Under the pieces are notes generated by a model. The model ran no database searches and was not told the origin of the DNA. It saw only the letters and a list, made by a program, of their open reading frames with translations. Shown here in pieces: positions 1,051 to 59,236 of a stretch of DNA of 64,000 nucleotides (position 1 is its first letter; the number at the start of each line of letters is the position of its first letter). The stretch spans positions 62,001 to 126,000 of the forward strand of contig QPGO01000002.1 in assembly GCA_008632985.1 (NCBI GenBank), written 5' to 3'. Source of the stretch: Psammoneis japonica. Its lineage: Eukaryota. Position numbers and translations under genes: made by a program.

Positions 1051-1090
1051 GTGCAAACCACAACGGCTCTGGAGCAAAGTGCCCCATGCA

Positions 1091-1511: not shown

Positions 1512-1519
1512 CACTCCCC

Positions 1520-5803: not shown

Positions 5804-5875
5804 TTCGTAGTTTCATTTCTGCAGATTTCGTTGCCTCGCACAACATGCAGGAGTGATGTTGCTGTGCCCTGTGTG

Positions 5876-6296
5876 TGTGCCAGGCGCTGAAAAAGAAGAC
5901 GTGTTGCGACTTTGTCGTTGTGAAAATTGCGAGTTAGTTTGGAGCAGAAAAAGTGGGATCGTGCGAATGGGGAATCTTGCCAAATCCCCATTCGTTCGCA
6001 TTTGGATTGCATCAAATCGATCGTGCGTTCACATTGTGGAATGTGCGAATCAAGCCATCACGCGCCATGCACGAGTGATGTCATCGTGTGGAATCACACT
6101 GCCATCGTGGGCCAGACGACGGGCCAGTGTGCTTCACACGGATGCTCTCTTAGCATCCTTCTGGAATTGCCTGAGACCTAGAGCCACGCCCTCCTGTGGT
6201 CGTGCTTCCCAGGTGCGTGTCAACAACACTGCGTTGCCACGCACAAGAGGCTCATGCACGGTCTCGCCGTGTTGTCCAGTGGCGAGGCATGCTGCA
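5876..6296 (-). repeat. 5' LTR of gypsy element
   Basis: Direct repeat of 1091-1511. Confidence 0.95.
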
Positions 6297-36855: not shown

Positions 36856-39350
36856 TCACTGGGTTGCCCATCTTAGAGCCAAATCTTGGCACAGGTCTCC
36901 ATGCTCGGAGTCAAAGAATCCCCAACAAATTTGTCCATCCAGTGTTTTCCTGCAGAAGCCAACCAAAATGGCTTCAATCTGGTTTGTTTGCAACAAACAT
37001 CCATTGGACAACTCTTCACTGGAGATGGTGGCAGCAAAATGATCCTTGCAACCAAATGTTTCCTTGCGCTCAAGCTGGATGTGAAGCAGATGGTTGGGTT
37101 CCACTGCAGCTCCAGTTTTGCCCTCTTCTGACTGTGCAATGACTGTTGGTTCTTTGTCATCTTTCCCAATGATGAGAGAAAGAAGATGCTGCCATGTCTT
37201 GTGCACACACAGATCTGGCATCACTTTTTTAATCTGAAGCTCCAGCGACAATGTGTCAGAGTCCAAAGATTTGTGTTTCTTGCCAGTTGAGCTCACGCGG
37301 TCCATTGCAGCAGTGACATTGAACCCTCTGTGCATGTTTTGAGCAAAATTTTTGCTGTGTGAATGGAATTTTCTTTTGGTCTGCTTCAGCACCTTTTCAT
37401 CTTCCCCTTCCCAATGCACTCAAACCGGTCCTTTGTCATGCATGTCCTCAGGAAAAGACAACATGCTAAGAACATTGTGTGGTTCATGCCAGATTGGGGC
37501 CAGATCTTTGCCGTCTTCACCACGGTTTTGTTGCACTGGCAAATCTAGAGCTTCCATGTCATTGAGAAATCGCGCGATGCAAAACCTGAGACGTGGCTCT
37601 AAATCATCTGAACTGAATCCTGCCAGTGCATGCACATGCATGTTTGAGGCAGAGTTGAGCATTTTGACAATGTCCGACACCTGCAATTGAGCAGATGGCA
37701 GTGTGCCTGGGGGGGTTTGTCACAGCCATGTAACCCACAACACGTTCGCGCAGTTCTTTGGCATTGCCGTCCATTGGCAATCCACACATTTTTAGCCATG
37801 CCTTGTCAAACGGCATGGTCCAACTTGCTTGTTTGTCCACAGGCGGAAACACCACAGGTGGGCCATCCGGCATTTCGAGCACCAAGTTGGCAAAGAACTT
37901 GAACAAACGTCCAAACACAATCCAATTCTCGCATTTAAATCCAGCAAAACTGTCCTTTGTGAAGGGACGCACATTCAACCAAGGAAGTCACAGTGTTTCA
38001 CAACAGCGTCATGTCTGGTTCATCAGTGAGGACTCTACAATCTGCTCCCATTGCCCGTGCAAGCAGCAAGCCAAACCTTTCTCCATCAAATGCATCACGG
38101 CCTTTGCAGTGTTGCTGAGTTCATGCATTGGTGTCTCTTGCCACTGGTCAGGAGGTGTCCCGCTAAACCAAATGGGAGGCATTTGACACATGCGGCATTT
38201 CTCAGGATGACGTTCACGACCAAGCAAAAGCACTTCTGACAATTCTGGATTTTGATCGGGTTTGTCTTGCAACACTTTCAGCAGATTGCAGTTGTTGGCG
38301 TTTTCCAAAATGCCAGAAACAACTTGTGTGTTCACACTGCAACAATCACCAAGACAAGCTTTGCCTTCCGCTGTGGTCCGCTGGTTCTGACAGACGTTTG
38401 TGTGCGTTTTAACATCAGCACTTTGAAGAAATTTGTGGGTCCATTTGAAAGGAGGGAGAGCTGATTTACCACCAAGTTTGCAGGCAAGGGGGGCACACAG
38501 CAAAGGATTGGAAGCATCAACAGACCAGTTGGCGCACAATCCAAATGGACATGTCAAGTCTGCAATCATTTGAAAGCCATTGACAAGGGTTTCTTCAATG
38601 CATTTGCAACAGACGCGTTCCAGCTCTAGGTGGGACCTCGCACTGCTGCACTGTGACATCAACAGTTTTTTGGATCGCGTCGCATGTCGCGCAGGCACAT
38701 TTCTACGTGTAAAATTCTACGAAATTGTTTCATGCTCCCTGTTTTGCGAAGCCAAAGGCTTTCTATTTTCAACATTTGTGACAGTGAAAATACGCTGGGT
38801 GTGTTCTTTAATGTCTGAAGAACATGCCCGGGCAAACTGTCAATGATGTGCTAGAAGCATGAAGGAGGAGATACGTTCGTAAAATTGCCTCTTTTTCTGT
38901 TGGCGATCATTCACATTTTCATTGCAGAACAAATTTACTACGGAGCTCGCACATGGAATTCTACGGGCCCAATGTCACACGGAGTCCCACCCAGGACTGG
39001 AACCCGTCAACAGTGGATGCAAGACGCAAGATGACAACCAACTTTCTTGATGTTCAACACATGGCCAAACAATGCATGATTGGTTTTTATGCCAAGTTTC
39101 ATTCCAGTGATTGCGCGTTTTTCCGGTTGGTCTCCAGATTGCAACAAGACATCTGCAACGGGTTTCATCAATTTGCCAGTGCTGCCAACAAACACAGGTG
39201 GCACCTGCCCAGTTCAAAGAAGGTGAGTTTCCCTTTCAACCTCAGACACACATGTCATGATTTGCACCTTTGGGCCCAAGCGCAGCAAGAAAGTGGTTGG
39301 TGAACTCACCAATGCCGGTTGCGATCACACTTGAGTCATCAGGGAACAAA
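36856..39350 (-). pseudogene. Putative Plavaka/CACTA(CMC)-like transposase with a SAP motif, interrupted by a MITE
   Basis: SGDQPEKR...HALFG...C..C, PMHELSN..K, AGFKCENW..FGR, SAP-like WLKMCGLPMDGNAKELRERV, SML.FPEDM..KGPV..HWEG..EK. Confidence 0.5.
38612..39008. mobile_element. MITE with imperfect TIRs and a 4-bp TSD (AACA)
   Basis: gacgcgttccagctctaggtgggac ... gtcccacccaggactggaacccgtc, aaca on both sides; the flanking reading frame continues across it. Confidence 0.85.
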
Positions 39351-42639: not shown

Positions 42640-45600
42640 CAAAACAAAACCCAAAGTCTGTTTTTAAAGTGCTGCCATGCTTCCACCCCACAACTCCGGC
42701 AACAAGATGATGCCAATCCGAAGCAACTTGGGACAGTTCCAGTGCCTCTGGCAGCCAGAAGTTTGGCTTCCTTTGCACTTGACTTGAACATTGGTTTCAC
42801 CATGGCCAGCCAATTTCGAAGTCTGTGAGTGGAGCGAGTCAGGTGCTTGTCAACAAAAATGAACAGATGCGCTCTGTCCTTTGCCAGGCAGTCTTTCACC
42901 TTGGAACAAATCTTCATCTCAACGTTGGGATGACTTGCAAGTTTCTAAATTGTGTCCATGCACAGTGTTGTCATGAGAACCCCACAGGTCCCGCCATTGC
43001 TCCCAGACATGGTTGCCAACTTTGGCTGCCCAATCTAGTCTCTGTTCCTGTTCGGACAGTCTTTGGTGCGTGCTGCTCACCAGGAGGTAAGTGATTGATT
43101 CACATTCCACAAGGCAGAAAACCCTCCACTGAATGAATGCTGCCAACCAATTGCTTCCTGAGAGCAGAAGACCAAAACCGTGCTGCAATGAAATTCTTCA
43201 GATCACATCACTTTGTCCCAAAACCATGCTTCTGTTGCCAAAATGAGCACATCCTGAAGAGATGGAGAAGTGTGTGTGTCACTGCACTTCTTGCGCAGGC
43301 CTTGCAAGAACTTCCACCTCCATGCTTCATTGTGAGGGCAGCGGATTGTGTGATCTCTGTCTTCCATGGGATGTTGACAGTGGACACAGCAATCCAGATG
43401 AGTGGGATCATGTCAATGCACAATCTTGTTGGTCAGCAGAAGGTCATGGACTGGCTTGACAGTGCTGACTTTCCTGCACATGTTTCTGACATGAGCTTGG
43501 CATGAACCTTCCAATCAATTGATCCACACACTTTGTCAGACCAACCATGTTTCTCTTTCATGTGACTGATCAGAGCCGGGTTTGAAGCTTCGTGGCGGAG
43601 AACTGACTTCATTTTGGAGGACATTGCAGAATCTTGAACAACCAAATTCACAAGGCAGTGAGGCATGCAATGCGCCAGTGAAGTGCAACCAGTGCATTGG
43701 TCTTGGTGACAACCCGCCAACTTGTCAGCACGAATGTTCAGTTTGGCTGGCAACGAGAGTGTTTCAAGTGGAGCATCATCATCTTGATGTCCCTTCACCC
43801 AATGAACATTGATCTCTGTGCCCAAGGTGTTGTCTGCCCTGAAATCAAAGATTTGATGGAAGTCAGCAGACAGGGAGTTTGCAATGTGATGCCGTTTGAC
43901 AAAATCTTGGTTGGCATCTGTCTCTTCTGGTTTGGAAGGCATGGGGATGATGCACAGAAGTCAGACACATTTCTGACCAGAGATGAGTTGTCACAGTGAA
44001 GATCAGTGCCCAGTGCGAAAGTTTGGCAACAACAATCCATCAACCTGAAAACAAAATGAAGGAAGGAAAGCAAACCATGTGCTTCTGCTCTGTGCGAGGA
44101 GGGATGACAGCCAAATGCAGGTCCTGCACAATCAGCCAACGGCAATCCATCAATGGTGAGAGTCCAACTGAAGGCACCCTTAAAATCAACAACCGCTGCC
44201 AGCGGAAGATCAAAAGGATCCAAGTGGCTCAGCATTTTCAAAGACTGAACAATGTGAGGCAATGTCAGCAAACAAAGTGGACTCCCATGGAGGAAGAGAT
44301 TGTGACATCTGCTGGAAATCATTGGAGACGAGAAGAGAGGGTGGTGAGTTGACCAAAGTGTCAGGTGGTGCCACTTTCCAGCATCCTTTGCGGGTGGTTG
44401 CAACTGAAACAGGAGCAGCAGATGGAGACACATCAGGGCTGTTTCCAGTTCACTGATGGAACCTGCACAACCATTGCATGTGGGGAAGACATGAAAGCCA
44501 GAGTCAGGTCGCATGCATGAAATTTCTTTGGATGGTTCATGGTGAGCTGAGTGAGCCATTCTCATTTCTGTGGCAGGCACTGTCCAGGGTCACACAGGAC
44601 TTCAGAGTTCAACTGAATCATCTTGACACAAGTGCTTGCACAGTCGGTGCCATTGCTTCCATGCCCTGTTGCATGGCTGAGCTTGTTCTGCTGGATTCAA
44701 GGCGGAGGTGCCGCTGAGAAGGGAGCATTGTCCCGCAATCTCTTGAGTTTGTCTGGGGTCCAACCATCTGGCAGCATGACATCCAAAACTGCAAGAACGT
44801 TTGAACAGAGTCGGCAACAATTGATCCACTGAATTTCTTGGTCCAAAAATGAGGCTGACTCCAACACCATGTCCATGATGTGCTGGTCATTGTTTTTGCT
44901 GGACAGGGAGCACTCCAGTGTCATCAAAATCCATGCAAGCATTGACTCTGGCAAGAAAGGATCAAAGAGACATGAGCCACTTAGATTCAGAGTGAGAGGT
45001 GATTTTGTGTGGACATCATGCAAGAAGCTGACACCAGTGCCAACTTGAAACTGTGTCCAAGCAACTGCAATGTGTGACAGTGTCTGAGGTTGACCGGGAC
45101 TTCTCCAGTGTCAAAGAAGCTGGAGCAATTGGGCAGTGCCCTGTTCCATGTCTAAAGACTGAAAACCGCCACCTCCCAAGGAATGTGGTCCGAACAATGC
45201 ATCTCTCTTTGTGTTCCAACCACAACCGCATTTTGCAAAAATGACCCCCGTTGCCTTTTGTTGGACATCCAGCAATTCCGTTGGTTTGAAATGAGCATTT
45301 GGCAACACACAAGTCATCACCGAAAGACACCCAGCAAAGCAATGTGTCCAAGCATCATGTCTGTCAAGTGGGCAAGATTGGAGGAACAGGGCAATGTCAT
45401 TGCTTTTCTTCTTCAATGCATGCAACTGTGTCTTTTGGTTGCCTGCTGGCACTTTAAAGTGACCTGAGGTCTTGTGGGGGGGACAAGCCAACAATTGTGC
45501 ACTGCAACGTGCAGCAGTTTGATCCACAGATGAAATTTAAATGATGTTGTCATTGCAGGGGCAAAGACAAGGCTCGCTGTTGTTGGAAAACTGCCATTTG

Positions 45601-47650
45601 ATCATGTGAAAGGAACATTTGGGTGGTTTCAGTTTGTGGCCGGTGGCATTTAAGAGATTGCACCAAAGCTGGTTGTCCTCCTCCATCTCAAACGCAAGAT
45701 CCAAGATGCAAGGTTGAGGGGATGCACGAAAATCATCAGCCTGTTTGGACATGTCATTGACATTTCCTTGATTGAAAATCTCTAAAGAAAGGGTCCAATC
45801 TGGAGTCACAAAGAAAGCGCCATGTGGGCTTGTTGGTCAAAAATGTGAAAAAGGCTGTTTCACATCTGATTCCAACAGAATGGAGAGTTGCCGCTGCCCT
45901 GTCCAGCACCACAAATTGGGGCATCTCCAGCATGAGAGTGTGATGATTGTGAAAGTCCCAGAACCGCCTTCAACCAACATCGCATGTTGTGAAGAGTGGA
46001 GGTTGCCACTTGCACAACTGCCTTTGGCACACCATTGCTGCAACTTTCCAGTGCTGCCAGAGCCAGGACATTGCAGTCGTGACATGATGTGCAGTCATCG
46101 TCACTGTGAACAGCAGACTTGCATGAGACCCAACCAATTTCCAGCATCAACTCTTCAAGATAAACTGGAGTGTTGGCGCAAAGGAAGGGACGCCTGCCAC
46201 AAATGCCTTGATTGTGCAATCAACGGTGTCCCACATTCTGTGCCAATGCCCACCACTTGATGCTGGAGATCAACTGGAAGTCAGCTTTGCAGAAGTGAAT
46301 GACTTGCAGTTGATGCATCTTGTTGTTTCCTGGTTCCATGAAAATCATGACATTGACCATGTCCTTCCAGCGATCACAAGAGCAACCCCAGCACAGAGCA
46401 TGGTTCAGAAGATTGAGCCAAATCCAAACAAATGAATGTTGGATCACATCAAGTTTGTCCTTGTCAGCGGCATCTGTGTCAGTGGCACTGCCAGAGTTGG
46501 AGTGTTGATGAGGAGCATGCGTTGCCTTCCAATGACCAAGATGAAGGCCAGAGCATGTGGACGTTGACGCAGACTCCTTCCAACACTTGATCTTCCCTTC
46601 TAAGTCAGATTCTGTGAGCAGAGACGAGACTGATGCAGGAGAGCGTTGTTTGAGATGTTGGATAAATCAGGGTGCAGGTTCATTCAAAGAAGATGCATTG
46701 CAAGCTCCGCAGCAAAATTGTTGGGCAATGAGAATTTCAATGATCGCCAACAGAAAATGAGGCAATTTTGCGAACGCACAAACTCATCAACAATTGAAGT
46801 GCATTGTTTTTTACTTGGCTGCTGCGTTCTTCAGACACTGAAGCATGCAACTGGTGCACTGTTGTTCCTAAAAATTTGTCAAATGAAACGACTGGGGCTT
46901 CGCAAAACAGCGAGTCTGGAACATTTTTTTTGAATGTCACATGCAGAAATGCACGTGCGAAACATGCGACGAATGACAAAAAATGATTGTGTCACACATC
47001 AGCACTGCAAGCTCCCACCCAGGGCTGGAGCACGTCCATCCATCATGACCATCAAACACCTGAATGGACCAATGACCAAGTGGGTCAGACTGTTGGGAGT
47101 GTGGCAGTGGGACGAGACAGAGTTGCAAGAAATGATGGCAGTGCCACCTGGTTTGCATGGAGTGGTGAAAGTCATGGAGCTGTTGGAAAAGATGCCTTGA
47201 CTGTGGAGCAATGAACCAGACACCGTGGATTGGCATGTGGACAGAATGTCAAATTGGGAGGTGTCCAGACAAACCCACCAAGTCAGCTTGAATTTCCGTT
47301 GCGACCTGGCAGCAATCATTCACATCCCCACCGCGCTTGTCAAACTTGCAGCCACTGGCATCAAATGCATGCTGTTGGGCATGGTGTGGTGCTGACTTGG
47401 TTTGTCAAAATTGCCTGTGTTGTTCCAACTGTTGGAATGAGACAAAATTCAAATTTGGGTTCCCGCCAGTGCACCAAGTTCCCACACAGCTTCTGCACAA
47501 CCACCAAAATGGTCTTGGTTGCTGTGACTCAGGTTTCCACATGCATTCCACACAGAGCTGACAACTGACAGGTTCCACATTTTAGATTGCATGGTTTGAC
47601 ATGGTCTTTTGTGAGACAATGATTCGGCAGAATTCAGCGCTGAATCAGTC
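42640..47650 (-). mobile_element. Non-LTR retrotransposon ORF2 relic (APE endonuclease, RT, RNase H), copy A
   Basis: PGGTAII...DPLGHWS (endonuclease), RWKDMVNVMIFMEPGNNKMHQLQVIHFCKADF, GAGQGSGNSP, LKPPKCSFH, GPHSLGGGGF, SSHRAEAHG, WVKGHQDD; 3' end shared with copy B. Confidence 0.82.
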
Positions 47651-48949
47651 ATTGCATGTTTGGATGTGTTGACACGGCAGGACCTGCCACCTGGCAAAAG
47701 GTGATCCTGGCACTGCAGCTCCAACATCGTGCGACACAGGGAAGTGTTTTGTCAGCCAATGAGGAAGAAATGTTTGAGCTTTTCTGCACACTTGTTGCAG
47801 GGAATTTGGCAGTTTTTTGGGGATGTCCCCTGATGGCTGGGGATGTGGTGCTTTTCACCTTGGCTGAGCCAGTGCTGTCAACAACTGTGGCTGTCTCTTT
47901 CCATCCTTCAAGTCTGGGACAAATTTTCCAGCCGCTTGACATCTCCTTTTTTGTTGGGGCCGGTTTCCTCTGATGGGCACAGCACTTTGTTCTTGCACAG
48001 GAGCAGTGGTGCCAACCTGGCAACATGAAAAACAAGCAGAGGTGAGAATCAAAACAAGGCAGGTGTGTGTGGCATCTGCAGCTGTGGTGCAGCTGACATG
48101 TGCAATGACAACAACGTGTGCTGCATTGAGTGCTGACAGCCAAGCAGCCTGAAAAGCAGCAGAGGTTCAACAGCAAGGAGAGAATCTTCCCGGCCTGCTC
48201 CAGCTCCAGGTGATCCGCTTTTCATCACGCGAGAGACTGACTCATGTCAAAGTCCTTCATTTTGATCATTTTGACAATCAAAAGGCAAGTGTGCACCCGA
48301 GTGTGCATGCAAAGTGTGCACTTGCCCTTCGATTTGGCAAAAAATGGATTTTGAAAAAGTCAATTGCGCTGAACCTGGAAATGGGCAAATGATGGGAATC
48401 GAACCCACTCGGAGCACCTGGAGCTGGAACAGGCCTCCCTTGCCTTGCCCAACTCCCCAGGCTTCTCTTGGGTGGCACCACAGATGGAGATGACTTCACA
48501 AGCACATCAACAGAGAGCTGTTTTTTTTTGCTGCTGCTTCAAGCATGGAATTGCAAGAACGGCTTTGTTTTGTCAAGCGCTGCCTTGCAAGATTTTTTAA
48601 ACCAAGCTTTGTTGTGTCTGGGCACCGCAACACCTGGGCGAACAGCAGATTTTGGGCAATGAGCACAACTCACCATGCTCCCTGAAAAAAATGTGTTTTG
48701 AAACTGCGCCTCGCAGTCGCATGCATCATGATGACATTTTTCCATGTTGGAAAGACACCAGACCTGCAGCGCACATTGAAAAGATGCCAGACCTGCAGAA
48801 TCTCACAACCATCACAAGCATCTCCCACCCCACATGACAGACAACAACCCACAACCATGGCAATGGTGCAAATGACATCGCATTGGATGTGGCATCCAAT
48901 GATCAGCAACAATGTGTCAGACGTTTGGCCAAGGACGCAGACATTTGGG

Positions 48950-49100
48950 AGCTTTGAATGACTGTGGTTGATGATGAAGTTGACGCGGATGCTTTGAAAT
49001 GACTGTGCTTGATGATGCAGTTGATGCAAATGCTTGAAATGACTGCAGTTGATGATGCAGTTGGTGCCGATGCTTTGAATGACTGTGCATGATGATGCGC
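48950..49100 (+). repeat. ~40-bp tandem repeat, about 4 copies
   Basis: atgactgtg..tgatgatgcagttga....atgctttgaa units. Confidence 0.7.
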
Positions 49101-49877
49101 TGCATCTTTTGCTCATCATCCATCAAGGCGGCGGCTGCAAGCACAGGAGCGGTGTCAAGCACGATGCCTGGGCTCCCAACCTGTGATGACTCTCATTGAA
49201 GAGCCCAGGGGAGTTGACTGAAGGTTGGGTGATGAGTGCATTGCCAGCAGCAGGGCCAGCAACAGTGACAGAATCGACAAAGCTGCCAGTGTTTTGTTGC
49301 GCTGGGTGTTGCGGCTGTGAGAAGAAAAAAAGAAGATCGCTTCAAAGGAAATTCGGGAAACCACACACGCAAGTGAAGCACGCGAATCATGCATGAGTTC
49401 GTGCTGTGTTGACAGGGCAAAGCAAGGCGTGGCATTGTGCAAAATGTTCGCTCTCGTTTCATGCCTTGTCCCGCACCTGTGCTGTGTGTGAGACCACTTA
49501 AAACACATGCCGTGACATGTGATTTTTTTGTCCATTTCACAGGATTTTGCCCCAGTTCTTCAACGAGCCGGTGCTGCACAATGGTGCTTAACGTCTGAGT
49601 TAAAAGTCATTTTGAGCCGTGCAAATGACTTCTCACAGAACACTTCTTTATGTCACAAGTGATCACATGACATCCTTGAGAATGACTTGTTGCAGCACCT
49701 CCTTTAAGTGATGTGTGGTTTGCCACTTGGCAACCCACCAAAAAAATTTGTCTTGTGTAAAATGTTTTCACGCCTTGTGCATGTTGTGCATGCTAATCGA
49801 AACGGCACTCTCATTGTTTTCTCATTGTTGGAGCTGTCTGGATCAGGATCGATGTCGATTTGTTGTTTTAATGTTGT

Positions 49878-50216
49878 CCCAAGAGCTGCTGGCTCGGGCA
49901 TTGGGCTAGCTTCATTGCTGCTTCGGTGGTTTGCGACTACAGTCACGCTGAGTTCTTGCCTTTGAGTGAGATTCGTTGTGAAAACTGGTCGGAAACAACT
50001 GCAAAGCCACACCTGTTTGACACCGGTTGAGCTGCTGTCGTGCTTTTGGGTTGTCAGGTGTCCCAAATCTGACATCTTGTTCCAAAGTCGTCCCAAGAGC
50101 TGCTGGCTCGGGCATCGGGCTAGCTTCATTGCCACTTCGGTGGTTTCGGCTACAGTCACGCTGAGTTCTTGCCGTTGAGTGAGATCCATTGTGAAGTTGG
50201 TCGGAAACAACTGCAG
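49878..50216 (+). repeat. ~125-bp direct duplication
   Basis: cccaagagctgctggctcgggcat...cggaaacaactgca at about 49878-50003 and 50092-50215. Confidence 0.8.
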
Positions 50217-50236
50217 AACTTTAAAGATTTTAAGAA

Positions 50237-53226
50237 ATGGGCACACGTGGCATTCCATGGCACGGCGACGCTCCGAGGCCTCGATGGCCAGTTGAACAAC
50301 AACCAGATTTGGCATTTGAGAAACCAAAAGCACCGTTCAAGTTCAAACCTGAGAATGTGAAAAGACATGGATTGCTTTCCAAAAAGTGGAAGAAGGAATC
50401 TGTCAACAGATTGGAGGTGTCGGAAGCTGGAGCTTGCATGTTGTGGGACGGACACAGCAAACCGCATTGCCAAAATCCCCGTTCTGATCGTGGGAAGCTC
50501 AACAAACTGGCGAAAGAACAAGGTGTTCCTGTCAATGGAATGAAAGGGACGCACATTGACCCTGGCGAGTTCATGCACATTGACCATGAAAGTGATTTTT
50601 GGCGTGATTGTTTTGCACCCCATTTGTCCAAGTTGGATGTCAAGGGATTGGTTGATGACATGTTGAAGTCTCATTCGGAAGATGCTGGTGACCGCCTGAG
50701 GGGCAATGTCACTGCAGGCGGTGGACATGCTTCACAAAACACATGGTTGAATGAAGACGGAGCAACAGAACCTCAGGTCACTAAAGGGCTTAGGAAACAG
50801 CACGTGGAAACAATGTGTTGCATGTCTGACATGCTTCATGATTGGGTGAAAGCTGCTCCTGGATGGGACGAAGTGCCGTTCACTGCAGACAAACGGCGGA
50901 ACGATTGCTTTGCCTCCAAACTTTGCGACAAATTTGGTTTGAACCGGATCAACAAGAATGGCAAACAATCACAACTGTTCGAGCACTTTACATTGGCTGT
51001 GACTTCGGCGGATGGGTTAGATCCTATTGCCAAACTGGCTGTGTTGCTTGGTTGCCATGCAGACGACTTGAATTGAAGGAAAAAGAACTGCAACGCTCTC
51101 ATGTGCATCCACTTTCATGTGTGCATTGATGGTGAGTCATTGCTGTGGCATGTCTTTCATTTTTGATTTGTTCAATGTGCACGCTCTAACGTCATTGTTG
51201 ATTTATTGCCTGTCAGGCAAATGGCATCGAACAAGTCTAAAAGCACTTCATCCATCCAGCTGGCAGTGACGAGTTGCTTTGCCAGATGTTGGACTTCTTC
51301 CACTCCTTGCCAAAAGAGTGTCGCCAAATCGATGCACGTTTCTTGCTGCCATCACGTTCAGTTGGGGTCCACTGTCCTTTCCCCAACATGAACAAAATGG
51401 TGTGGCACGCAGCCTTCGCCTCTGCCATGCTGTGCAGGCTGCGGTCTTTTCCAGTCTCTAAGGAGCGAGCTTGCGAATTGCTTCTACCAGTGGGATGGTT
51501 GACCACCCCCAATCAGATGTACGAAGTGTACAAAGGGTGGGCGAAGAACGGTCTTCCCAAGTGTAATCTCACAGAGGCGTTCATTGATGAATGTGTGCGT
51601 CGTCATGGTGGGCTGTTGCGTGGCGACGGCAGTCGCTTGCAGCCGGCATTCACCTGCTCCACTACAAATGTGGGGATTTGTCGTTCACTGTTTGATCTTC
51701 TTCAATCCATTCGCAAGTCTGATGCTGGAGAGTTAGATTGTGACGGAGTGCTCAAGCTTCTCACTCACTGCGACAAGAAGAATGGCGTTCCAATTCAAAA
51801 TGTCATTGGTGTGGCGGACATTGGAGCACAGACTTTGGTTGCAGTCGGCAGCACAGTGGCCATGTACGAGGATGCGACATTGGTGGAGCAAGCTCGAGTG
51901 TGTCCTTCCACACGCACATGCAAGGTCATCAACGAGACGTTTGGCATTAGAACTCCTGTGGTGAATGAGTGTTATAAGAAGTTTGCCCGACTCACTGGCA
52001 CAAGTGCAGCTGTGGCCGAGAATGTTCCTTGTGAAAAACTCAGAACTTTGGGTGAAAATGCAGACTGTGTGACGTCTGAGCTTGTCAAGAGTGGCATGTC
52101 TCAACGGATTCAAAAGAATGGCCATTGCTACAGGCCAGACACTGTTCACCACGATCAATCTGTCTTTGAAATTGAAAACGGAGTTAGGATAGAATCGTTC
52201 AAGAAGTGCCATTCGGACGAAGGAGAGGAGCATGATCTGGTGCGTGAGCCAATGAAACTTCCCCAATACAAGATCAACAATAGAATTGAAATGGATTGTC
52301 CTTGGGTGCTGGGGAAGTTTGCATCCTTGAAGCCGGCAGAAGTAAAAACTTCCGAAACGTCTGTGCTCCCAGAAGACCGCAAGAAGAACGAGACTCGAAA
52401 GAAGAAGAGTGCCAAGTTCAACAAGAACAGTCACTCTGGCGTGGGAAGAAACTACGCTTGGGAAGCGTCTCTTCGGGCAAAGGTGGACAAAGATTCTGAG
52501 CTTGACTTCGAGATCAGCAAATGTGAAGAGGATGATCAACCTCACTACACCAGTGTCAACAAAGATCTTAAGTTAACGCTCACTCTTGGCAGAAGAAGCG
52601 TCACTCGAAACTCGACACGTCCTGACTTGGAAAGCATGTTTGGAGCTAACCGATCAGACGGCACATGTCGAATAATAGAATTGGCGAAGCTGGCTATGAC
52701 GAGTCTTGGTGCAGTGGCTTCTCGGAAAAGGAAAAGAGGGAAACGAAAATTGGTCCATTGCACAACCAATGAACAATTTGGTCGGGATCCAATTTTTACT
52801 GCCACCGTTAATTCAGCGAAACAAGTGCTTTTGCGGAGGAACTACAACGATTGCGTCTTGCCATTGGAAGGACTGGTGGCACATGAAAGAGATGTCGCGT
52901 TCTACCGGACACGTGCACAAGCCGAAGCCGCTGTTCTTCTGAAAGCTATCTTGCATCACACGCCGGAAACTAAGACTCAGTCGGGGATCAAGACGGACCC
53001 AAAATGGGCTGTTAACCTTCTACCAGCTTCAAGAATGAATGTTTTGGGTAGAGATTTTGTGGTGTTGTACACATGCACTACCACTGGTCATGGCAAAAAC
53101 TCAAGAGCAGTGAATACGTTGCTCGGTGTGTTGTTCTTTCGAGGAGGATGCCGGATTTTGTCCATCCCTACTGACAAAATGGATTTGAAAAGAATGTGGC
53201 AAGACTACTGTTTACAAAAGTTATAA
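50237..53226 (+). pseudogene. Spliced gene with an HxDxxN motif and an HhH-like ENxxCE domain; damaged at the 5' end, nearly intact at the 3' end
   Basis: ORFs 50237-51076 and 51274-53226; likely intron 51132-51216 (GTGAGT, CTAAC branch, CAG); CHADDLN, WHRTSL, GVADIGAQ, AENVPCEKLR; in-frame TGA at 51074 and a frameshift after the intron. Confidence 0.6.
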
Positions 53227-53796
53227 TTAAAGTGTGTAACTGTGAGGAAGTGCTTGTTAACGATTAAGTCGTTCAATCTTATTGTGTCGCTGACAATTGT
53301 TCCGTTTCCACCAAAATCGTCGTACAGCCGTCTTACAATTTGGCAAAATTGCCCATTTGTGAAGGTGTCGACGTCACGATTGAGATTATTGGTCATCCGT
53401 TCGTTGGCGTTGTCGACGACGTTGCTCCTCTCTGTCGATGTTTGCTCTTGCACGTCTGTGGCTTCAGATAGATCAGCCACTTTCAACTTGCTCCATCCGC
53501 TTTTCTTTCATCCTTGCAATCTTATTGTGGACAATCTTTCTCCAATGCGACCCATATTCATTTAGTTGAACAACGGTGATTTTTTCTGTTTCTGGATCAA
53601 AGACAATTCCGGCTTGTTCCCATTCTATCTCGACATTCGACACCCTCCGTTGCATCTTCGTCGTCCGTATTGATACACTCGTCAATATCAGAGTCAACCA
53701 TAAAGCAATGGTTCTTCCTAAAAGTTCTTCTGGGTATAAGACAACTGCCAACGGTGCCACGACGAAGCTATCATACTCGAGGAGCATCTCATTCAT
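53205..53796 (-). CDS. Hypothetical protein(s), two overlapping short ORFs
   Basis: ORFs 53473-53796 and 53205-53486 lie in TA-normal sequence and have protein-like composition; no family recognised. Confidence 0.25.
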
Positions 53797-53827
53797 GATA
53801 CCCAGGACTCTCGCATAACTTAAGTCG

Positions 53828-54253
53828 TCACAAAATTCTCGGTTCCAACGGGTTTAACGTCTGTAATGGAGCACTCCCCATCTGTCTATGCGCCGCAAGA
53901 GCAGGATTGAAAGAGTAGGATTTATCCCTTTTCGTGCACTGGTGCACTTTGAAATAGATATCATGATCGTACGCCTCGTCGTCATGGGCGTAAATACCAA
54001 CCTCGTGTCCCGAATCCTTGTAGGTGACGGTCGCGTCGCACTTTGCCTCCCAGTTTACGGTCCACGGTATAAATCTAAAAAACCCTCTTGTTCCCTCGTA
54101 ACAACCGCGATTGTTGTCGCCCATCTCTCGACATGTCTGCTCGCAAACGGACGTTTGTGCAAAGACGCAATAACTTCCTCGGTTTGGATGGGGCCGCCCC
54201 TCGGATGGGTCAATGGTGGGTAATGTAATGGAATCTTGATAATCTTGTCCCAA
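53828..54253 (-). CDS. Hypothetical protein
   Basis: 141-aa ORF with normal Tyr content in the TA-normal island. Confidence 0.35.
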   Translation of the reverse strand: MGQDYQDSITLPTIDPSEGRPHPNRGSYCVFAQTSVCEQTCREMGDNNRGCYEGTRGFFRFIPWTVNWEAKCDATVTYKDSGHEVGIYAHDDEAYDHDIYFKVHQCTKRDKSYSFNPALAAHRQMGSAPLQTLNPLEPRIL

Positions 54254-55109
54254 ATGGAAATAACCCTAAAACCAAGCCTTGATGGCTCGGGGCTCTTGAA
54301 AATGTTGGAAGACAAACTGTCAGGACAGCTCGAACGGAATCTCCAAAACCCGGCCAGCACACCATGCCGAAGAAGGCTTCAAAGGTAATGACGCAAAGAA
54401 TAACTCTCCTATAAACACCGGGAAACTTGGAACGCGCTTCCTCTCCATGGACGGCTTCCTGAAATGGAACTAGTAGGATGATGGAGCCATCAAACAGCAA
54501 AACCGGCACTTAAGACACAAACAAGCACGCATCAGAGAGGAACATTAGATTCAGTTTCCGGACTAGGTCCTAACCAACACACTGTGTCCTGCACTTTGAG
54601 AATGGGCTTCACGGACTGTTCGTTCTTGTTTTCGAGAGCCCAACTCTTGAACAAGCAATCCGAGGAAAACAAAACACTGGAGTAGTCAAGGCTAAGACAG
54701 GCAGCGCAATGGCATAGCCAGAAGTAGCAAAGGCGTGCGGTAGATACAAAGTGGTAGGCCCCACCAGTCCCGCTGAAGGGTGATGACGATAACGGAGTTG
54801 CGCCAACGTCGACAGCGTTGTCGTTGCCATTCTTTCGCACCGATGCGTCTTGAAGCGACACCGCGGAGCGGCGGCGAACCCCTTCCTTTCCAATCTTTTT
54901 CAATGAGACGTGCGACAGCCCGGGATCCTCCAATGAAATCATGGTGACTGGTGCTAACATGCTAGAAACCCACAAGGCAAAACATATAAAGAAAAAGCGA
55001 CACGCGTTCTATGCAACGACAGGAATCGCACAACGTACAGCACACTCACAGCGAGTTCACTCTTGACAAGATTAGAAACCATCATTTGAGTTGGTCCCAC
55101 GCATCGTTC

Positions 55110-55400
55110 CAAGAGATTGGATACAACCAGTTTGGCGCTTGACTAGAATGTTGAAACTAATGCCAGGGACAAAGAGAGCAGGTCTCGTTCCGTTGGCGTT
55201 GCAAATCGTGGTGCGAATCTCCTCGTCGCTCAGTCCATCGAAGGCGCCGACAGAATTCATGGAAGACGAAAACGCCTCCGTGAAAATATAGGAGACACGC
55301 GCTCCTCTAAAGAGCTCATTCAAGGAGTTGTGCTTAGCGCCATTACTGGGTATAATGACCACCGCGACCTTCAAGGATCGGCGCAAAGCTGTACAGTATC
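55110..55400 (-). pseudogene. Dynamin-related protein (Drp1/Vps1-type) middle-domain fragment
   Basis: ELFRGARVSYIF...FDGLSDEEIRTTICNANGTRPALFVP.ISF.ILVKRQ is the dynamin central-region signature; no GTPase domain nearby. Confidence 0.8.
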
Positions 55401-55699
55401 GTTCACGGAGAGCGATTCTCCAAAACATCGAGTTTGTGCGTCAGAAGAGCCACGTTCATATCCCAACACGCAACACGTGAAGCCTTGTGGTGGACTCTGT
55501 CATTCACAGGCGACAAAAGCCTTAGGTGCAGTAAAGTCACTTCTCGAATCTGGAAACGGATGTTACCCTCTCTTGTCGTACTGCGCGCTGCTGCTTTGTG
55601 CCGGTAGAACGTTATTGAACATGCTCATCGTCATTTTCTTGGAAGCAAATTCACGAATTTCAAAATCACATGTGGACGAGAGACAAGCCACGTGGAAGC

Positions 55700-58250
55700 A
55701 AAAAAACTGTCCTCGACGTTTAGGTCGACTACGCGATGCTCTCACCCGCAGGACTTCCCCCGAACCCGTCAACGTGCCACCGCCAACGACTACCATAAGT
55801 TGCTTGGAGAACTCCGTTCGCTCTCGCTTGCCACACCCGGCTCCCGAGGCCTTTTCTCTGAGCTGCAAGACGCTCTCCGTCACACCCCACCTGACTCCCG
55901 TGTCCGTTTGACTCCCACCGTGCACAGTGTCTTGGATGATTTCAGCGATCTCACCACAACAATCGAAGATCGACCCGCACGCATCCAAGAGCTTGCACCG
56001 TTGGACTTTACCGTGCATGGCTGCCATGACGCCGCCGGCCATGGTGCTGGTGGTGTCCTCCTCCCAACTCCTGCTGCTGTCCCCCGGGCGGCCCGGGTGA
56101 AGCATTCACCCCCCGAGGGCGGCCCCGGCGCCAGCAGGATTCAGGCCCCGCGGCATGGTGCATGCCCTTTCCCTGCAATGTCACCATGGATTTGGCAACC
56201 TTTGACAGCCCCAATGGTTCCATTGCCAACACTGACCTCGAATTAGCAGGTGGCATGCTCCACACCCATGCCGCCACGGATTGTTTCGATCTGCGGGAAC
56301 GCACCAACCTGCAGTGCACCGACAGTTTGGGCACAATGTGCTGGCAACGTAAGGGCTCTTCCACCACTGCCAAGCCCTGAGCCAAGCTCCCACACCATGC
56401 CGCCTGTCACCAATGTTGTCACTGCCACATTGCGCTGCATGATTGCCTGCCGCCGGGGCCGTTGAGCACAGCTGCTGACGATGCCTCCCGCCTTCAATCA
56501 CTGACCACTGCTGCCTTTTTGTGACATTTTAACACTTTTTGTCCCCAGACCAAATCTTGGCACTTGTGGACGCTGCCACAAGAGCTGCGTTCCTGCGCAA
56601 TCTTGGCGCTGCGCAATTCGCAGTCACCAACTCCGTTGCCCCTGCACGCGCCACCGCCTGCGACACCCATTGGACAAAATGGACTGAATTTTGTGCTGAC
56701 ATGGCCATCGACCCATTGCTCCAAGCCATCGACAACCCAGTTCTCTTCCTCCAGGTCTTCATGCACTGACACAGAACTGGCCAAATCGCCCCACATGGCC
56801 ATCCCATCAAAGCACGCACCGCTGAAGATGCCGTGCGGTCGGTTGGACAAACGCTTTCTGCAATGGGGGCCCCAGACCCACGCAAAACACCCCAAGGCCA
56901 AATGGATTTCCATCTTACCCAACAAATCCGTCACTGGGTGAAACCCATCCCGATCACTGTTCTCCATTGGATCCTCACGTCGGCGGCCACTGGTCACCAC
57001 CCCGGCACCATGGCCATTGCCGACATGATCACTCTTGCATTCTTTTGTTTGATGTGACCCGGCAAATGCACTGCAACACCACCCGACTCCACCCCATTCT
57101 GTCTGGCCGATTTGTGTCTGAGCACTGGTCAAGCATGCTTGGATTTATTCACTTGCCCTGCTGCCCATCTCAATGCTGCTGCCTTTGCCATGCTTGCTTT
57201 CACCACCCAGAAAAATGGTGTCCGTGGTGAAGTCACAGGTCAAGGCCTCTCTGGGCATCCTCAACTTTGCCCCGTCAAGGCTGCAGCACGCCAAGCTCTG
57301 CATCTCCGCTCCCATGGAGCGCAACCTGACACTCCGCTGTCCGTTCATTTTCACAATGGTGCCTGGCATTGTGTCACTCCTGCTGACATCACTGCCATCC
57401 TCTGCACCGCTGTCCTGGCCTCGGCCCTCAGAACCTCAGTTTTGCACCTGGCAATGTCTCTGCCCACAGTCTTTGAGCTGCAGGTGCCATGGATTTGCTG
57501 TGTGCCCGAGTGGACACGGACATTGCACATCTCTTGGGTTGCTGGCACTCTGATGAAATGCCTCGGCACCTCCACCTTCAGGCGGAACCGATTGTGTGCC
57601 ATTTCTCTTGATGGATGCTCCAAGGTGGCAACTTTGTTCTCCTTCCGAATGCCAATGTCCCCATTGACCCTCCGTGAGCACCACACCCACCAGACGTGGC
57701 CCACCCTCCCGCCCAAGTCACAGGCCCTCCACTGCATTGCCACGCTGTTGTGGGTGGCACTGGCGGCCTGCTGTCCAGCTTGGGTTTGGGAGCAGGGCTT
57801 CCTGCAGCACTGGCAAAGCCATCTCCACTCCTGCCTGTTGGATTTGGTCCTGTTGTGTCTTGTCTCCCAGCTTGAATCACTCTGCCGAGGACAAACGAGA
57901 AAAGCGGCGACAGCTGCTGTCCTTGTGAGATCCGCAAAGAGGGACTCCCAATTCCTTTCCCGTTGAAAGTGCCGTGCGTTGCACAGGAGTTAGAATGACT
58001 CTTCTCTGGCTTTCATTGTTTTCATTCTTTTGAGAACAACAACAGCAAGCCGGGCTCTAGACAGCCAATCGCTCCCACCTCTCCCGCCCTCTGGCCTGCC
58101 TGCCGTCCAGCTTGGTTTGGGAGTGGGGCTTCCCACAGCGCCAGCAAAGCCATCTCCACTCCTGCCTGTTGGATTTGGTCCTGTCATGTCTTCTCTCCTG
58201 GCTTGAATCACTCTGCCAAGGACAAACGAGAAAAGTGGCAACAGCCGCTT
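55700..58250 (+). mobile_element. Tyrosine-recombinase retroelement relic (DIRS/Ngaro-like): RT end, RNase H, YR and terminal direct repeats
   Basis: YHKLLGELRSLSLATPGSRGLFS, HDAAGHGAGGV, IANTDLELAG, RSVGQTL..MGAPDPR, AFFCLM*PG, FTTQKNGVRGE, LCPVKA, HSL*AAGA, GCWHSDEMPRHLH (=GRWxSD..LRYLH); duplicated block about 57767-57915 and 58095-58245. Confidence 0.82.
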
Positions 58251-59236
58251 TCTTCTGTCTTTTGCACCCAAAAACCGCCAAGCAACAAAAAAAAAAAGAT
58301 CGGTTGCTCACGCTTTACGCAGTTGTTCTCAGCTCACAAGGAATGCCCCTCAACACCAACGAGTGTTTGTTGGACCCTGTTCTTCCTGATTTGTTTACGT
58401 TCAATCCTTTCATGGCTGTGATCCAGTGTGCAAAGATGAGTTTGAACAAGGTGCAGAAGGTCTGAACCTGACCGAGATCACCGGGTGCTTTGATGAGCCA
58501 GGCAACAGTGCAGACACATGTTGTGAGTTGAGTGGAAGACCAATGAGCTTCGTGCTTGATGCACTCAATGCTCTGGCACACGACAGCCAGCTTGACTTGA
58601 TTTCATGCTCATCAAGCTTCCAGCTCTGTCTCGCCATCTCACCTGACCTGGTCGCCACATTGAATCACTCATCAAGTTTCTTGAGCAAAATTTCAATGTG
58701 TGTTTTGCAATGTTTCGCGGGTGCTTGAGGCACAACAAAATTTGGTTCAGCAGCCACAACAATGGGGTGATGTTGGGGGTCAAGACAAGATGCACATGGA
58801 AGTTGATGATGCACACTTTGCAAGTCTGAGTGCTCAATTTGGAGAGTGGATGCACCACAAGGGAGAATCGCTGATGACGCTCTTGATGGAGTGGGCACGG
58901 CACACAGCACATGGCATGCAGTCTCAGCCCTGTGCAAAGTGCTGGCCATTTCAGTTGACATGCATGATTCCTTGATGAGAGTGCAACATCATCCAAGAAT
59001 CGATCAGCTTTGTGTGCAGTCCCTTCTGCAGCAGTGTGGCTTCTTCCCAGTTTTCTTTTGCCAGGCCTTCTCCAAAACAAAAAATGCTGAATCTGAGCAT
59101 GGTGGAGAGTGGTGTGCAATCTGAAATCTCCAAATCACCGGCACATGCTGTGCCAACAATCCAAAGCAGTGGCACAAATGACAAGACATCCAACAGCAAG
59201 TGTGGAACTCAAATGCTCTCACTGCACTGCTGCTGG

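What the first reader, a model, noticed from the sequence alone, without database searches (positions are those of the whole stretch)
50237..55950. TA-normal island with graded edges: the mutator follows position, not element identity
TA and Tyr codons return progressively along a single gene (rare before about 51.4 kb, common by 52-53.2 kb) and are normal from 53.2 to 55.8 kb. They fade again inside the YR retroelement, whose first ~200 bp keep TA (tttaggtcgactacg, taccataag) while its distal part has almost none. Gradients crossing element boundaries suggest spreading from, or protection against, a chromatin domain. Bases 1-110 also keep some TA.
Basis: partly seen in the sequence, partly recalled or inferred. 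Interest (0 to 1): 0.78.

Follow-up and report, generated by a model that had tools for sequence, protein, structure and literature searches.

The report
Part-spared patch in TA-eroded repeats
A 3.3-kb stretch of dead gene fragments has largely escaped a mutation process that turns TA into TG or CA across this repeat-rich region; one edge of the spared patch fades gradually through a single dead gene and the other is an abrupt step beside a truncated retroelement.

Summary
The window has TpA o/e 0.10 with CpA/TpG excess. TA/(TA+CA+TG) is 0.011 left of 49.49 kb, 0.065 at 49.49-52.52 kb, 0.20 at 52.53-55.83 kb and 0.013 beyond.

- **Left edge:** it runs through one dead gene (50258-53235), a TET/JBP-like family member. 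Thirds give 8/210, 14/204 and 29/178 (p=6e-7). A smooth ramp and a two-step staircase fit equally well (BIC 1293.6 vs 1292.6).
- **Right edge:** an abrupt step at about 55.80 kb, 50-105 bp inside a 5'-truncated RT-element fragment.
- **The island is not TA-normal:** 4 of 12 conserved Tyr codons in its two pseudogene fragments are now His.
- **CpG decay:** a symmetric staircase around the island.
- **In situ action:** LTR pair differences show the process acts after integration.
- **Counter-example:** a 340-bp TA-rich copy of a high-copy repeat sits sharply inside the desert at 38.6-39.0 kb, so element age also sets TA level.

The TpA-to-TpG/CpA signature is already in print for Bigelowiella natans. 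"Position, not identity" is partly supported. No genome or epigenome was available.

The parts
44004..49487 (.). Left TA desert: repeat-derived, near-saturated TpA loss and strong CpG loss
   Evidence: TA/(TA+CA+TG) 14/1240 = 0.011. CG/(CG+CA+TG) 0.077 up to 49269.
49489..52524 (.). Intermediate zone: 0.77 kb upstream sequence plus the first three quarters of the dead gene
   Evidence: TA 40/620 = 0.065. CpG 0.165 for 49275-52328. TG 328 vs CA 252 on the + strand, p=0.002.
50258..53235 (+). Dead copy of an uncharacterised family: TET/JBP-like dioxygenase domain, HhH-GPD-like glycosylase-fold domain and dsRBD-like domain. It has an in-frame TGA at 51077-51079 and a frame change between about 51148 and 51283.
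   Evidence: - 75 homologues, best E 8e-49.
- Collinear tblastn.
- In-frame stop directly after the invariant HxDxxN.
- Fold matches.
- TA gradient 8/210, 14/204, 29/178.
52533..55832 (.). The island: low-dose stretch with TA o/e about 0.45-0.6 and CpG o/e about 1
   Evidence: TA 119/590 = 0.202. CpG 0.304 for 52334-56156. 200-bp profile.
53485..54310 (-). Fragment of a calcineurin-like phosphoesterase gene (residues about 293-561 of about 600), in two frames: a pseudogene piece
   Evidence: - search for homologous proteins: 203 hits; named ones are diatoms and Rhizochromulina.
- tblastn.
- 7 of 10 conserved Tyr kept, 3 now His.
- An X2 contig of 1225 nt matches 53487-54300 with 81 other letters and 42 gaps.
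54890..55344 (-). Fragment of a dynamin-1-like gene (middle domain only, profile positions 394-557, with a 40-residue gap and frame changes): a pseudogene piece
   Evidence: - Pfam Dynamin_M 8.4e-15.
- tblastn and own profile search of all six frames found no GTPase domain or GED in the window.
- 1 conserved Tyr kept, 1 now His.
55695..56953 (+). C-terminal half (residues about 380-811 of about 800) of the pol protein of an RT-bearing retroelement; 5'-truncated, with no RT core in the window
   Evidence: 39 homologues, 11 of them with RVT_1. tblastn start at 55695-55755, end up to 56980. 4 of 4 Tyr/His/Cys-informative conserved Tyr columns are now His/Cys.
55801..58482 (.). Retroelement-derived stretch with near-saturated TpA loss but only intermediate CpG loss
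   Evidence: TA step at 55800 by maximum likelihood. CpG 0.16 for 56159-58482, then 0.049. Internal direct repeat 57766-57921 / 58098-58252.
38612..38962 (.). Mini-island: a TA-rich copy of a high-copy repeat inside the desert, with sharp element-delimited edges
   Evidence: - Segment 38671-38988 has 12/64 = 0.188, against 0.017 and 0.011 beside it.
- 13 TA vs 3 in the related copy at 46650-47090.
- Aligned TA vs TG 7 and TA vs CA 3.
- TA positions 38627-38962.
1079..6296 (-). Ty3/gypsy-type LTR retrotransposon whose two LTRs (1079-1511, 5864-6296, 94.7% alike) record post-insertion mutation
   Evidence: - Pfam RVT_1, RNase H, integrase.
- LTR pair.
- 17 difference events: 6 TG-vs-CA doubles, 4 TG/CG, 2 TA/TG, 2 TA/CA, 2 transversions, 1 other.

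Best explanation
The window is a nest of silenced repeats. It is being eroded in place by a DNA-level process that converts TpA to TpG or CpA, the same signature as the hypermutation reported in Bigelowiella natans. CpG decay runs alongside it.

The TA level at any spot is a cumulative dose: how long, and how intensely, that spot has lain inside the targeted domain. The 'island' (52.5-55.8 kb) is a low-dose patch, not an untouched one. It is made of dead, gene-derived DNA: the 3' end of a TET/JBP-like pseudogene, a phosphoesterase fragment and a dynamin fragment.

- **Right edge:** a junction step. A 5'-truncated, saturated retroelement fragment abuts the patch, and the step lies 50-105 bp inside it.
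- **Left edge:** a genuine dose gradient of about 3-4 kb through a single dead gene.

The most likely cause of the gradient (inferred, not shown) is that the boundary of the targeted, probably methylated or silent, domain lay at varying positions over evolutionary time. Proximal bases therefore accumulated more hits. Differences in insertion age add sharp steps elsewhere.
For: Shown:
- **Signature:** TA o/e 0.10 with CA/TG 1.66/1.69.
- **Conserved Tyr columns becoming Cys/His:** 5 of 5 in the gene up to 52666, 4 of 4 in the RT fragment, and 4 of 12 in the island fragments. Pooled flanks 9/9 vs island plus gene 3' end 4/14, Fisher p=0.0016.
- **In situ action:** 14 of 17 difference events between the two LTRs of one element are at TA/CG vs TG/CA sites, including 6 TG-vs-CA doubles.
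- **Still polymorphic:** of the 40 window-vs-contig differences displayed (of 1390), 7 involve TA vs TG/CA and 19 involve CG vs TG/CA.
- **Gradient inside one collinear gene:** p=6e-7.
- **The gene is dead:** in-frame stop and frame change, so selection on it is not the cause.
- **CpG decay steps:** at 49.27 and 52.33 kb, close to the TA steps at 49.49 and 52.53 kb.
- **The island fragments are not new:** contigs of the same sample differ from them by 81 of 814 and 23 of 263 letters, yet the fragments keep most of their TA.

From the literature: in B. natans the hypermutated tract is a contiguous, single-copy, silent domain. The authors extended it about 21 kb beyond the annotated viral insert (preprint 10.64898/2026.01.13.699255, Results read).
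Against: - The right edge shows no decay into the island (trend p=0.26) and is essentially a junction step.
- The mini-island at 38.6-39.0 kb shows no encroachment from either flank.
- A two-step model fits as well as a ramp.
- The profile is non-monotonic at 49.5-50.8 kb.
- TA and CpG decay are not tightly coupled. The RT fragment and the intermediate zone have equal CpG fractions (0.16) but five-fold different TA fractions (0.013 vs 0.065).
- No chromatin, methylation, expression or copy-number data could be obtained.
Confidence: 0.45

Rival explanations
1. Age mosaic plus recombination. Every segment simply carries the dose of its own residence time. The intragenic change at about 52.5 kb marks a gene-conversion or recombination tract between a heavily eroded and a little-eroded paralogue of the TET/JBP-like element. 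No positional gradient exists.
For: - A two-step staircase fits as well as a ramp.
- TA and CpG steps nearly coincide at 49.3-49.5 and 52.3-52.5 kb.
- The symmetric CpG staircase looks like a nested-insertion pattern.
- Several distinct contigs (3-6) of the same sample overlap places in 50-53 kb, so related copies exist.
- The mini-island and the LTR element show that age sets TA level.
Against: - Within 50258-52524 alone the TA trend is still positive (p=0.016).
- A conserved Tyr at 52666, beyond the putative step, is mutated, while 52903 and 53068 are not.
- No paralogue sequence could be retrieved to show a tract.
Confidence: 0.25
2. Homology- or copy-dependent targeting, as in fungal RIP, with leakage. 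The mutator recognises repeated DNA. The gene is hit in proportion to how much of it is shared among copies, and the unique or diverged gene fragments are spared apart from leakage.
For: - RIP leaks into adjacent single-copy DNA in fungi (passages on 'RIP leakage' read in PMC9453070).
- The island's fragments are only about 88-91% like their relatives in the sample.
- TE-derived parts are saturated.
Against: - 44.05-46.4 kb is covered by one contig at about 99% (21 other letters in 2365) and is still TA-depleted.
- In B. natans the main target is reported as single copy.
- Contig depth is not a copy number, so this could not be tested properly.
Confidence: 0.12
3. Transcription-coupled polarity. 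As with AID at immunoglobulin genes, the mutator loads near a promoter upstream of the TET/JBP-like gene, and its activity decays 5' to 3' along the transcription unit.
For: - Dose is highest at the 5' end of the gene and falls toward the 3' end.
- The intermediate zone is the only one of five segments with a strand skew: TG 328 vs CA 252 on the coding strand, p=0.002.
Against: - The desert upstream is even more eroded.
- The RT fragment and the LTR element show no comparable polarity.
- No expression data were available.
Confidence: 0.08
4. Assembly artefact. The scaffold joins or blends reads of differently eroded copies or haplotypes, producing an apparent intermediate zone.
For: - The window has three N gaps, and repeats flank them.
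- Related copies exist in the sample.
- One listed contig ends at 52542, close to the TA change-point.
Against: - Independent contigs match 51438-52542 (9 other letters of 1105) and 52716-53130 (3 of 415).
- The gene is collinear with homologues across the change-point.
- The N gaps are 35 kb away.
Confidence: 0.05

Closest known systems
TpA-specific hypermutation of integrated foreign DNA in Bigelowiella natans (Mettrop et al., bioRxiv 10.64898/2026.01.13.699255; abstract, Results and Discussion read)
   Same: - The same dinucleotide signature: TpA to TpG/CpA, with TpA depletion and CpA+TpG enrichment.
- It acts on DNA in place.
- It is clustered in kb-scale tracts.
- RT and DDE domains are enriched among TpA-poor CDS there; retroelements are eroded here.
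   Different: - Erosion here is near saturation over tens of kb of a transposon nest (o/e 0.10 over 64 kb, against 0.45 for their NCLDV tract).
- It co-varies with CpG decay, which that paper does not treat.
- The organism is probably different. Named relatives of the two host-gene fragments are diatoms and other ochrophytes, and no hit exceeded 58% (phosphoesterase) or 85% (dynamin). This is an inference.
- Tract edges are not analysed in the sections I read.
Repeat-induced point mutation (RIP) of fungi and its leakage into adjacent single-copy DNA
   Same: A permanent, dinucleotide-specific transition mutagenesis of repeats in place. It produces compositional domains, and 'leakage' into neighbouring non-repeated DNA is documented (PMC9453070, passages read).
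   Different: The direction is opposite: RIP makes TpA from CpA, whereas here TpA is destroyed. There is no evidence here for a duplication requirement or a sexual-phase trigger. The organism is not a fungus.
CpG decay of methylated repeats, with unmethylated islands
   Same: CpG/(CpG+CpA+TpG) falls stepwise away from the island on both sides, and is about normal (o/e about 1) in the island.
   Different: CpG decay alone cannot remove TpA. On the right side the two footprints are offset: TA steps at 55.80 kb and CpG at 56.16 and 58.48 kb.
AID-driven somatic hypermutation (decays with distance from the promoter)
   Same: A kb-scale decline of mutation density along one transcription unit from its 5' end.
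   Different: The target base and context differ. Here the region upstream is even more mutated. This comparison is recalled, not tested.

Membership tests
TpA-specific hypermutation (B. natans type) | Changes are TpA to TpG or CpA | tested here: met
   - Conserved Tyr (TAY) columns now TGY/CAY: 13 of 23 Tyr/His/Cys-informative columns in four genes.
- LTR pair: 4 TA/TG-or-CA events and 6 TG-vs-CA doubles among 17 events.
- Repeat copies: TA vs TG 7 and TA vs CA 3 of 13 TA differences.
TpA-specific hypermutation (B. natans type) | Acts on DNA in the genome, in contiguous tracts of foreign or mobile DNA | tested here: met
   LTRs of one element differ at such sites. Desert segments of 10-31 kb cover retroelement-derived DNA.
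TpA-specific hypermutation (B. natans type) | De novo rate about 1000-fold above background in mutation-accumulation lines | not testable with these tools
   No lines or raw reads were available. Only the window-vs-contig differences hint at recent activity.
Fungal RIP | C-to-T transitions, mostly CpA to TpA, enriching TpA | tested here: not met
   TpA is depleted (o/e 0.10) and CpA/TpG enriched: the opposite direction.
Fungal RIP | Requires duplicated sequence | not testable with these tools
   No genome was held. Contig depth is not a copy number.
TET/JBP dioxygenase (for the gene at 50258-53235) | Double-stranded beta-helix fold of TET/JBP type | tested here: inconclusive
   - Model of relative P0181 (pLDDT 79.9).
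- VIA-align: NgTET1 Z 9.4 (171 aligned, rmsd 3.8), CcTet 7.2, TET2 7.1, CMD1 6.8, then AlkB family at 6.0 or below.
- Foldseek found no match at E<=0.001.
- Pfam gave no TET/JBP-family hit; the only hits were C-terminal Tudor (P0179) and MBD (P0183) domains in 2 of 12 proteins.
TET/JBP dioxygenase (for the gene at 50258-53235) | HxD ... H iron ligands and a 2-oxoglutarate-binding Arg | tested here: inconclusive
   - H282, D284 and N287 are invariant in 23 of 23.
- R313 (22), R321 (21) and R330 (21) are nearly so.
- The distal His is split over two columns (H302 in 10, H305 in 9 of 23).
- The motif assignment is recalled knowledge of the family.
Tyrosine-recombinase (DIRS-like) retroelement (for 55.7-58.5 kb) | Reverse transcriptase | tested here: inconclusive
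   The window holds only the part after the RT core. Homologues carry RVT_1: precomputed in 11 of 39; in my scan E 2.6e-6 to 4e-4, below the curated cut-off.
Tyrosine-recombinase (DIRS-like) retroelement (for 55.7-58.5 kb) | Tyrosine recombinase ORF | tested here: inconclusive
   No Pfam integrase hit in the ORFs of 56.8-58.0 kb, even at E<=1. Erosion of Tyr codons could hide it.

The most novel reading that the evidence does not exclude
The erosion is a chromatin-bounded, thymine-directed process rather than adenine deamination. Proteins of the uncharacterised family found here would oxidise T at TpA to 5-hydroxymethyl- or 5-formyl-uracil, which mispairs with G and gives T-to-C on either strand. 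That family combines a TET/JBP-like dioxygenase domain, a glycosylase-fold domain whose best structural match is a phage thymidine-hypermodification enzyme, and a dsRBD-like domain; a dead copy lies in the gradient. The kb-scale gradient would record where the silent domain that recruits them ended. The chemistry is recalled, and nothing here links the family to the mutations beyond co-location.
Probability: 0.06. Interest if true: 0.9.

Novelty: new member of a known kind. Interest (0 to 1): 0.55.

Why it matters
If the left edge is a true dose gradient, the TpA mutator is aimed at a domain, not at a sequence family. That narrows its targeting mechanism to chromatin, methylation or small-RNA spreading rather than homology recognition. 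It also predicts collateral erosion of genes that border repeat nests.

The locus gives a compact test bed:
- one dead gene with a four-fold dose range;
- an abrupt junction step;
- an element-delimited unmutated insert.

It also suggests that the signature described in a chlorarachniophyte occurs, at saturation, in what is probably an ochrophyte alga, together with CpG decay.

Tried and rejected
**Resources that were unavailable**
- No whole genome is held.

**Sequencing runs**
- No RNA holder is listed, so nothing can be said on expression.
- Read laying gave contigs only.
- I looked at summed contig depth as a proxy for copy number: about 86-106 at 44-46 kb, 196-479 over 49.3-56 kb, and thousands at 46.7-47.3, 48.0-48.7 and 58.7-59.3 kb. 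I rejected it because the tool states it is no copy number. The refuting condition 'tracks copy number' therefore stays untested.
- X2 contigs lie only on 49.3-56.0 and 58.0-58.7 kb. Absence elsewhere is no evidence.
- Two joints suggested copies lacking the inserted blocks: 55695 to 58248 (1 contig, side 25) and 48435 to 57917 (1 contig, side 38). Both are too weak to use.
- A sensitive blastn of 47.5-49.6 kb against 55.5-59.6 kb returned no alignment; the script then stopped on the empty output.

**Searches that found nothing**
- Self-comparison found no repeat of 49-57.7 kb inside the window.
- Pfam found nothing in the gene and no catalytic-domain family in 12 relatives; the only hits were C-terminal Tudor and MBD domains in 2 distant ones.
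- ESM Atlas gave no usable hit.
- Foldseek against PDB found no match at E<=0.001 for either model.
- A 36-base exact pattern from the gene found 0 metagenome contigs.
- The search for related loci: the alignment was unusable, P0123 found none in metagenomes, and P0121 found none in viral contigs.
- Literature: apart from the B. natans preprint (found), I saw no report of TpA-specific erosion in the top 10-20 listed titles and abstracts of each of four searches. The library lacks most subscription journals.

**Readings considered and rejected**
- RNA editing before integration as the sole cause: LTRs of one element differ at these sites.
- Selection preserving TA in the island: it consists of dead fragments, of which 4 of 12 conserved Tyr are lost.
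- A general strand asymmetry: only 1 of 5 segments is skewed.
- TA retention in bases 1-110: p=0.063.

Full report
**1. Observation**

The 64-kb window is extremely poor in TpA (o/e 0.10) and rich in CpA and TpG (1.66, 1.69). CpG is at 0.55. In 200-bp windows TA is about 0 at 47-49.4 kb. It is 0.07-0.28 at 49.4-51.4 kb (apart from one empty window), 0.17-0.47 at 51.4-53.2 kb and 0.30-0.85 at 53.2-55.8 kb, then 0-0.22 from 55.8 kb on.

I treated every TA, CA or TG as a site that is or is not TA. Likelihood segmentation of 44-62 kb prefers four segments (BIC 1292.6):

| Segment | TA sites / all sites | Fraction |
|---|---|---|
| up to 49487 | 14/1240 | 0.011 |
| 49489-52524 | 40/620 | 0.065 |
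| 52533-55832 | 119/590 | 0.202 |
| after 55834 | 18/1365 | 0.013 |

A logit-linear ramp from about 48.3 to 53.7 kb fits equally well (BIC 1293.6). So 'graded' and 'two steps' cannot be told apart. Either way the change falls inside one gene.

**2. What lies there**

*The gene at 50258-53235 (+).*
- tblastn with the 75 homologues found by a full HMMER search (best E 8e-49) shows one collinear gene. An N-terminal domain lies at 50258-51148 and the rest at 51283-53235.
- The gene is dead. There is an in-frame TGA at 51077-51079, directly after the family's invariant HxDxxN, and a frame change follows.
- The family has no catalytic Pfam domain; the only hits were C-terminal Tudor and MBD domains in 2 of 12 relatives scanned.
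- AlphaFold models of two unmutated relatives were compared with solved structures:
  - The N-terminal domain matches TET/JBP dioxygenases: NgTET1 Z 9.4, CcTet 7.2, TET2 7.1, CMD1 6.8.
  - A helical domain matches HhH-GPD-type enzymes: phage 5-PmdU glycinyltransferase Z 7.3, AGOG 6.5.
  - A third domain is dsRBD-like (Z 5-5.9).
- These Z values are middling and Foldseek found nothing at E<=0.001. I call the family TET/JBP-like, not a proven member.

*The island.* It holds two gene fragments on the minus strand.
- Residues about 293-561 of a calcineurin-like phosphoesterase lie at 53485-54310.
- The middle domain only of a dynamin-1-like protein lies at 54890-55344, with a 40-residue gap and frame changes.
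- The named relatives of both are diatoms and other ochrophytes.
- Contigs of the same sample match these fragments at only about 88-91% (81 other letters and 42 gaps over 814 places; 23 over 263). The fragments are therefore diverged copies of genes that lie elsewhere.

*Right of the island.*
- Homologues of about 800 residues, some with RVT_1, match only from their residue about 380 onward, at window 55695/55750 to about 56950. This is a 5'-truncated retroelement fragment.
- I could not confirm a tyrosine recombinase.

**3. Is it mutation, and does it happen in place?**

*Conserved Tyr columns.* Homologues of all four genes have ordinary Tyr content. At columns where most homologues have Tyr, the window shows:

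| Region | Now Cys/His | Still Tyr |
|---|---|---|
| Gene, 50435-52666 | 5 | 0 |
| Gene, 52903 and 53068 | 0 | 2 |
| RT fragment | 4 | 0 |
| Island fragments | 4 (all His) | 8 |

- Six further columns in the gene carry unrelated residues.
- Pooled flanks (9 of 9) against island plus gene 3' end (4 of 14) gives Fisher p=0.0016.
- The island is therefore less eroded, not untouched.

*The LTR pair.* The two LTRs of a Ty3/gypsy element (1079-1511 and 5864-6296, 94.7% alike) differ by 17 events. Six are TG-versus-CA doubles, four TG/CG, two TA/TG and two TA/CA. LTRs are identical at insertion (established knowledge), so the process acts on resident DNA.

*Recent activity.* Of the 40 window-versus-contig differences displayed (of 1390), 7 are TA versus TG/CA and 19 are CG versus TG/CA. 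This hints at recent activity, including at 51604, 52443 and 53014.

**4. The two edges**

*Left edge.*
- The TA fraction by thirds of the gene is 8/210, 14/204 and 29/178 (p=6e-7). The trend persists when the last 0.7 kb is left out (p=0.016).
- There are no in-frame Tyr codons before 51520 and 12 after.
- The profile is not monotonic: the 0.77 kb upstream of the gene keeps 14 TA, and then 50248-50766 has none.

*Right edge.*
- The maximum-likelihood step is at 55800. The log-likelihood falls by 3.4 at 55740 and by more than 6 at 55700.
- The first 50-105 bp of retroelement homology keep TA at island frequency: 4 of 14 sites (p=2.6e-5) or 2 of 7 (p=0.0034).
- The island shows no decline toward this junction (p=0.26).

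*CpG decay* behaves differently. It is a symmetric staircase:

| Segment | CG/(CG+CA+TG) |
|---|---|
| up to 49.27 kb | 0.077 |
| to 52.33 kb | 0.165 |
| to 56.16 kb | 0.304 |
| to 58.48 kb | 0.16 |
| beyond | 0.049 |

It also declines along the retroelement fragment (p=1.6e-4).

**5. A counter-example in the same window**

Whole-window segmentation finds a second, tiny TA-bearing segment at 38671-38988 (12/64), inside the desert. It is a copy of a high-copy repeat.
- Its 13 TA lie at 38627-38962, matching the copy's limits (38612-38951) to within about 15 bp.
- The related copy at 46.65-47.09 kb has 3 TA. It shows TG (7) or CA (3) where this copy has TA.

Here element identity or age, not position, sets the TA level, and the edges are sharp.

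**6. Explanation**

*Best reading (0.45).* A cumulative dose of an in-place TpA-to-TpG/CpA process acts on a silenced repeat nest. Insertion age produces sharp steps: the right edge, the mini-island and the LTR element. A real dose gradient of about 3-4 kb runs through the dead gene on the left.
- The signature, the in-place action, the intragenic gradient and the partial erosion of the island are shown.
- That the gradient reflects a fluctuating boundary of a methylated or silent domain is inferred. It rests on the co-located CpG steps and on the domain-like behaviour reported in B. natans: a contiguous, single-copy, silent tract extended about 21 kb beyond the viral insert (preprint Results).

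*Rivals.*
- Age mosaic with a conversion tract between paralogues (0.25).
- RIP-like homology dependence with leakage (0.12).
- Transcription-coupled 5'-to-3' decay (0.08). The intermediate zone alone has TG 328 vs CA 252, p=0.002.
- Assembly chimera (0.05).

**7. Comparison and novelty**

The signature is the one described in B. natans. I read the abstract, Results and Discussion of that preprint; its supplements are closed.

It is the mirror image of fungal RIP, which also leaks into neighbouring unique DNA (passages in PMC9453070).

What differs here:
- saturation over tens of kb of transposon DNA;
- co-variation with CpG decay;
- the edge anatomy;
- probably the host lineage (inferred from diatom-like relatives).

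Apart from that preprint, I saw no report of TpA-specific erosion in the top listed rows of four searches of the held library.

I rate this a new member of a known kind. It is of moderate interest because the single locus cannot settle position against identity.

**8. Limits**

No genome, no raw reads, and no methylation, chromatin or RNA data were available. Copy number remains untested. The paralogues could not be retrieved. The organism is not identified.

Noticed in passing
window 50258-53235 (+); relatives P0121-P0195: An uncharacterised protein family of about 600-1000 residues with no catalytic Pfam domain. It appears to combine three domains:
- a TET/JBP-like dioxygenase domain, with invariant HxDxxN;
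- an HhH-GPD-like domain whose best structural match is a phage thymidine-hypermodification enzyme;
- a dsRBD-like domain.

Two distant members carry a Tudor or MBD domain at the C-terminus.
   Followed up: partly
window 38612-38962: A 340-bp TA-rich, CpG-rich copy of a high-copy repeat inside the TA desert, with edges matching the copy's limits. The older copy at 46650-47090 has TG/CA where this copy has TA.
   Followed up: yes
window 1079-6296 (-): A Ty3/gypsy-type LTR retrotransposon with 94.7% identical LTRs and only partial TA loss (0.049 over 6-7283). TG-versus-CA double differences between the LTRs show independent resolution of the same ancestral dinucleotide.
   Followed up: yes
window 49489-52530: The only one of five segments with a strand skew of the products: TG 328 vs CA 252 on the + strand (p=0.002, uncorrected). 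At conserved Tyr columns of 50-57 kb, 11 of 14 changes correspond to A-to-G on the + strand.
   Followed up: partly
window 53487-54300 and 55126-55388: Contigs of run X2 (same sample) match the phosphoesterase and dynamin fragments at about 88-91% and run on into unlike sequence at both ends. One has word depth 359, against 3-30 for the other X2 contigs listed. They are presumably the intact genes from which the fragments derive.
   Followed up: no
window 46668-47334, 48002-48668, 58674-59340: Very high summed contig depth (26283, 6695, 12252). Several contigs join about 59285 to about 46699, which marks the ends of a high-copy repeat family.
   Followed up: no
window 49770-50200: A tandem duplication of about 212 bp just upstream of the dead gene. 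It shows as repeated peptide strings in the minus-strand ORFs and as a contig joint 49985 to 50198.
   Followed up: no
window 10153-10424, 11505-12017, 14813-14909: Three N gaps lie among short segments that recur at 96% identity within 8-24 kb of each other, so the assembly is uncertain there. An ORF at 9479-9829 (-) matches the Pfam PT repeat.
   Followed up: no
window 20786-21949 (+) and 61227-62000 (-): Two eroded copia-type RT remnants (RVT_2, E about 1e-5, below the curated cut-off) lie in the deserts.
   Followed up: no
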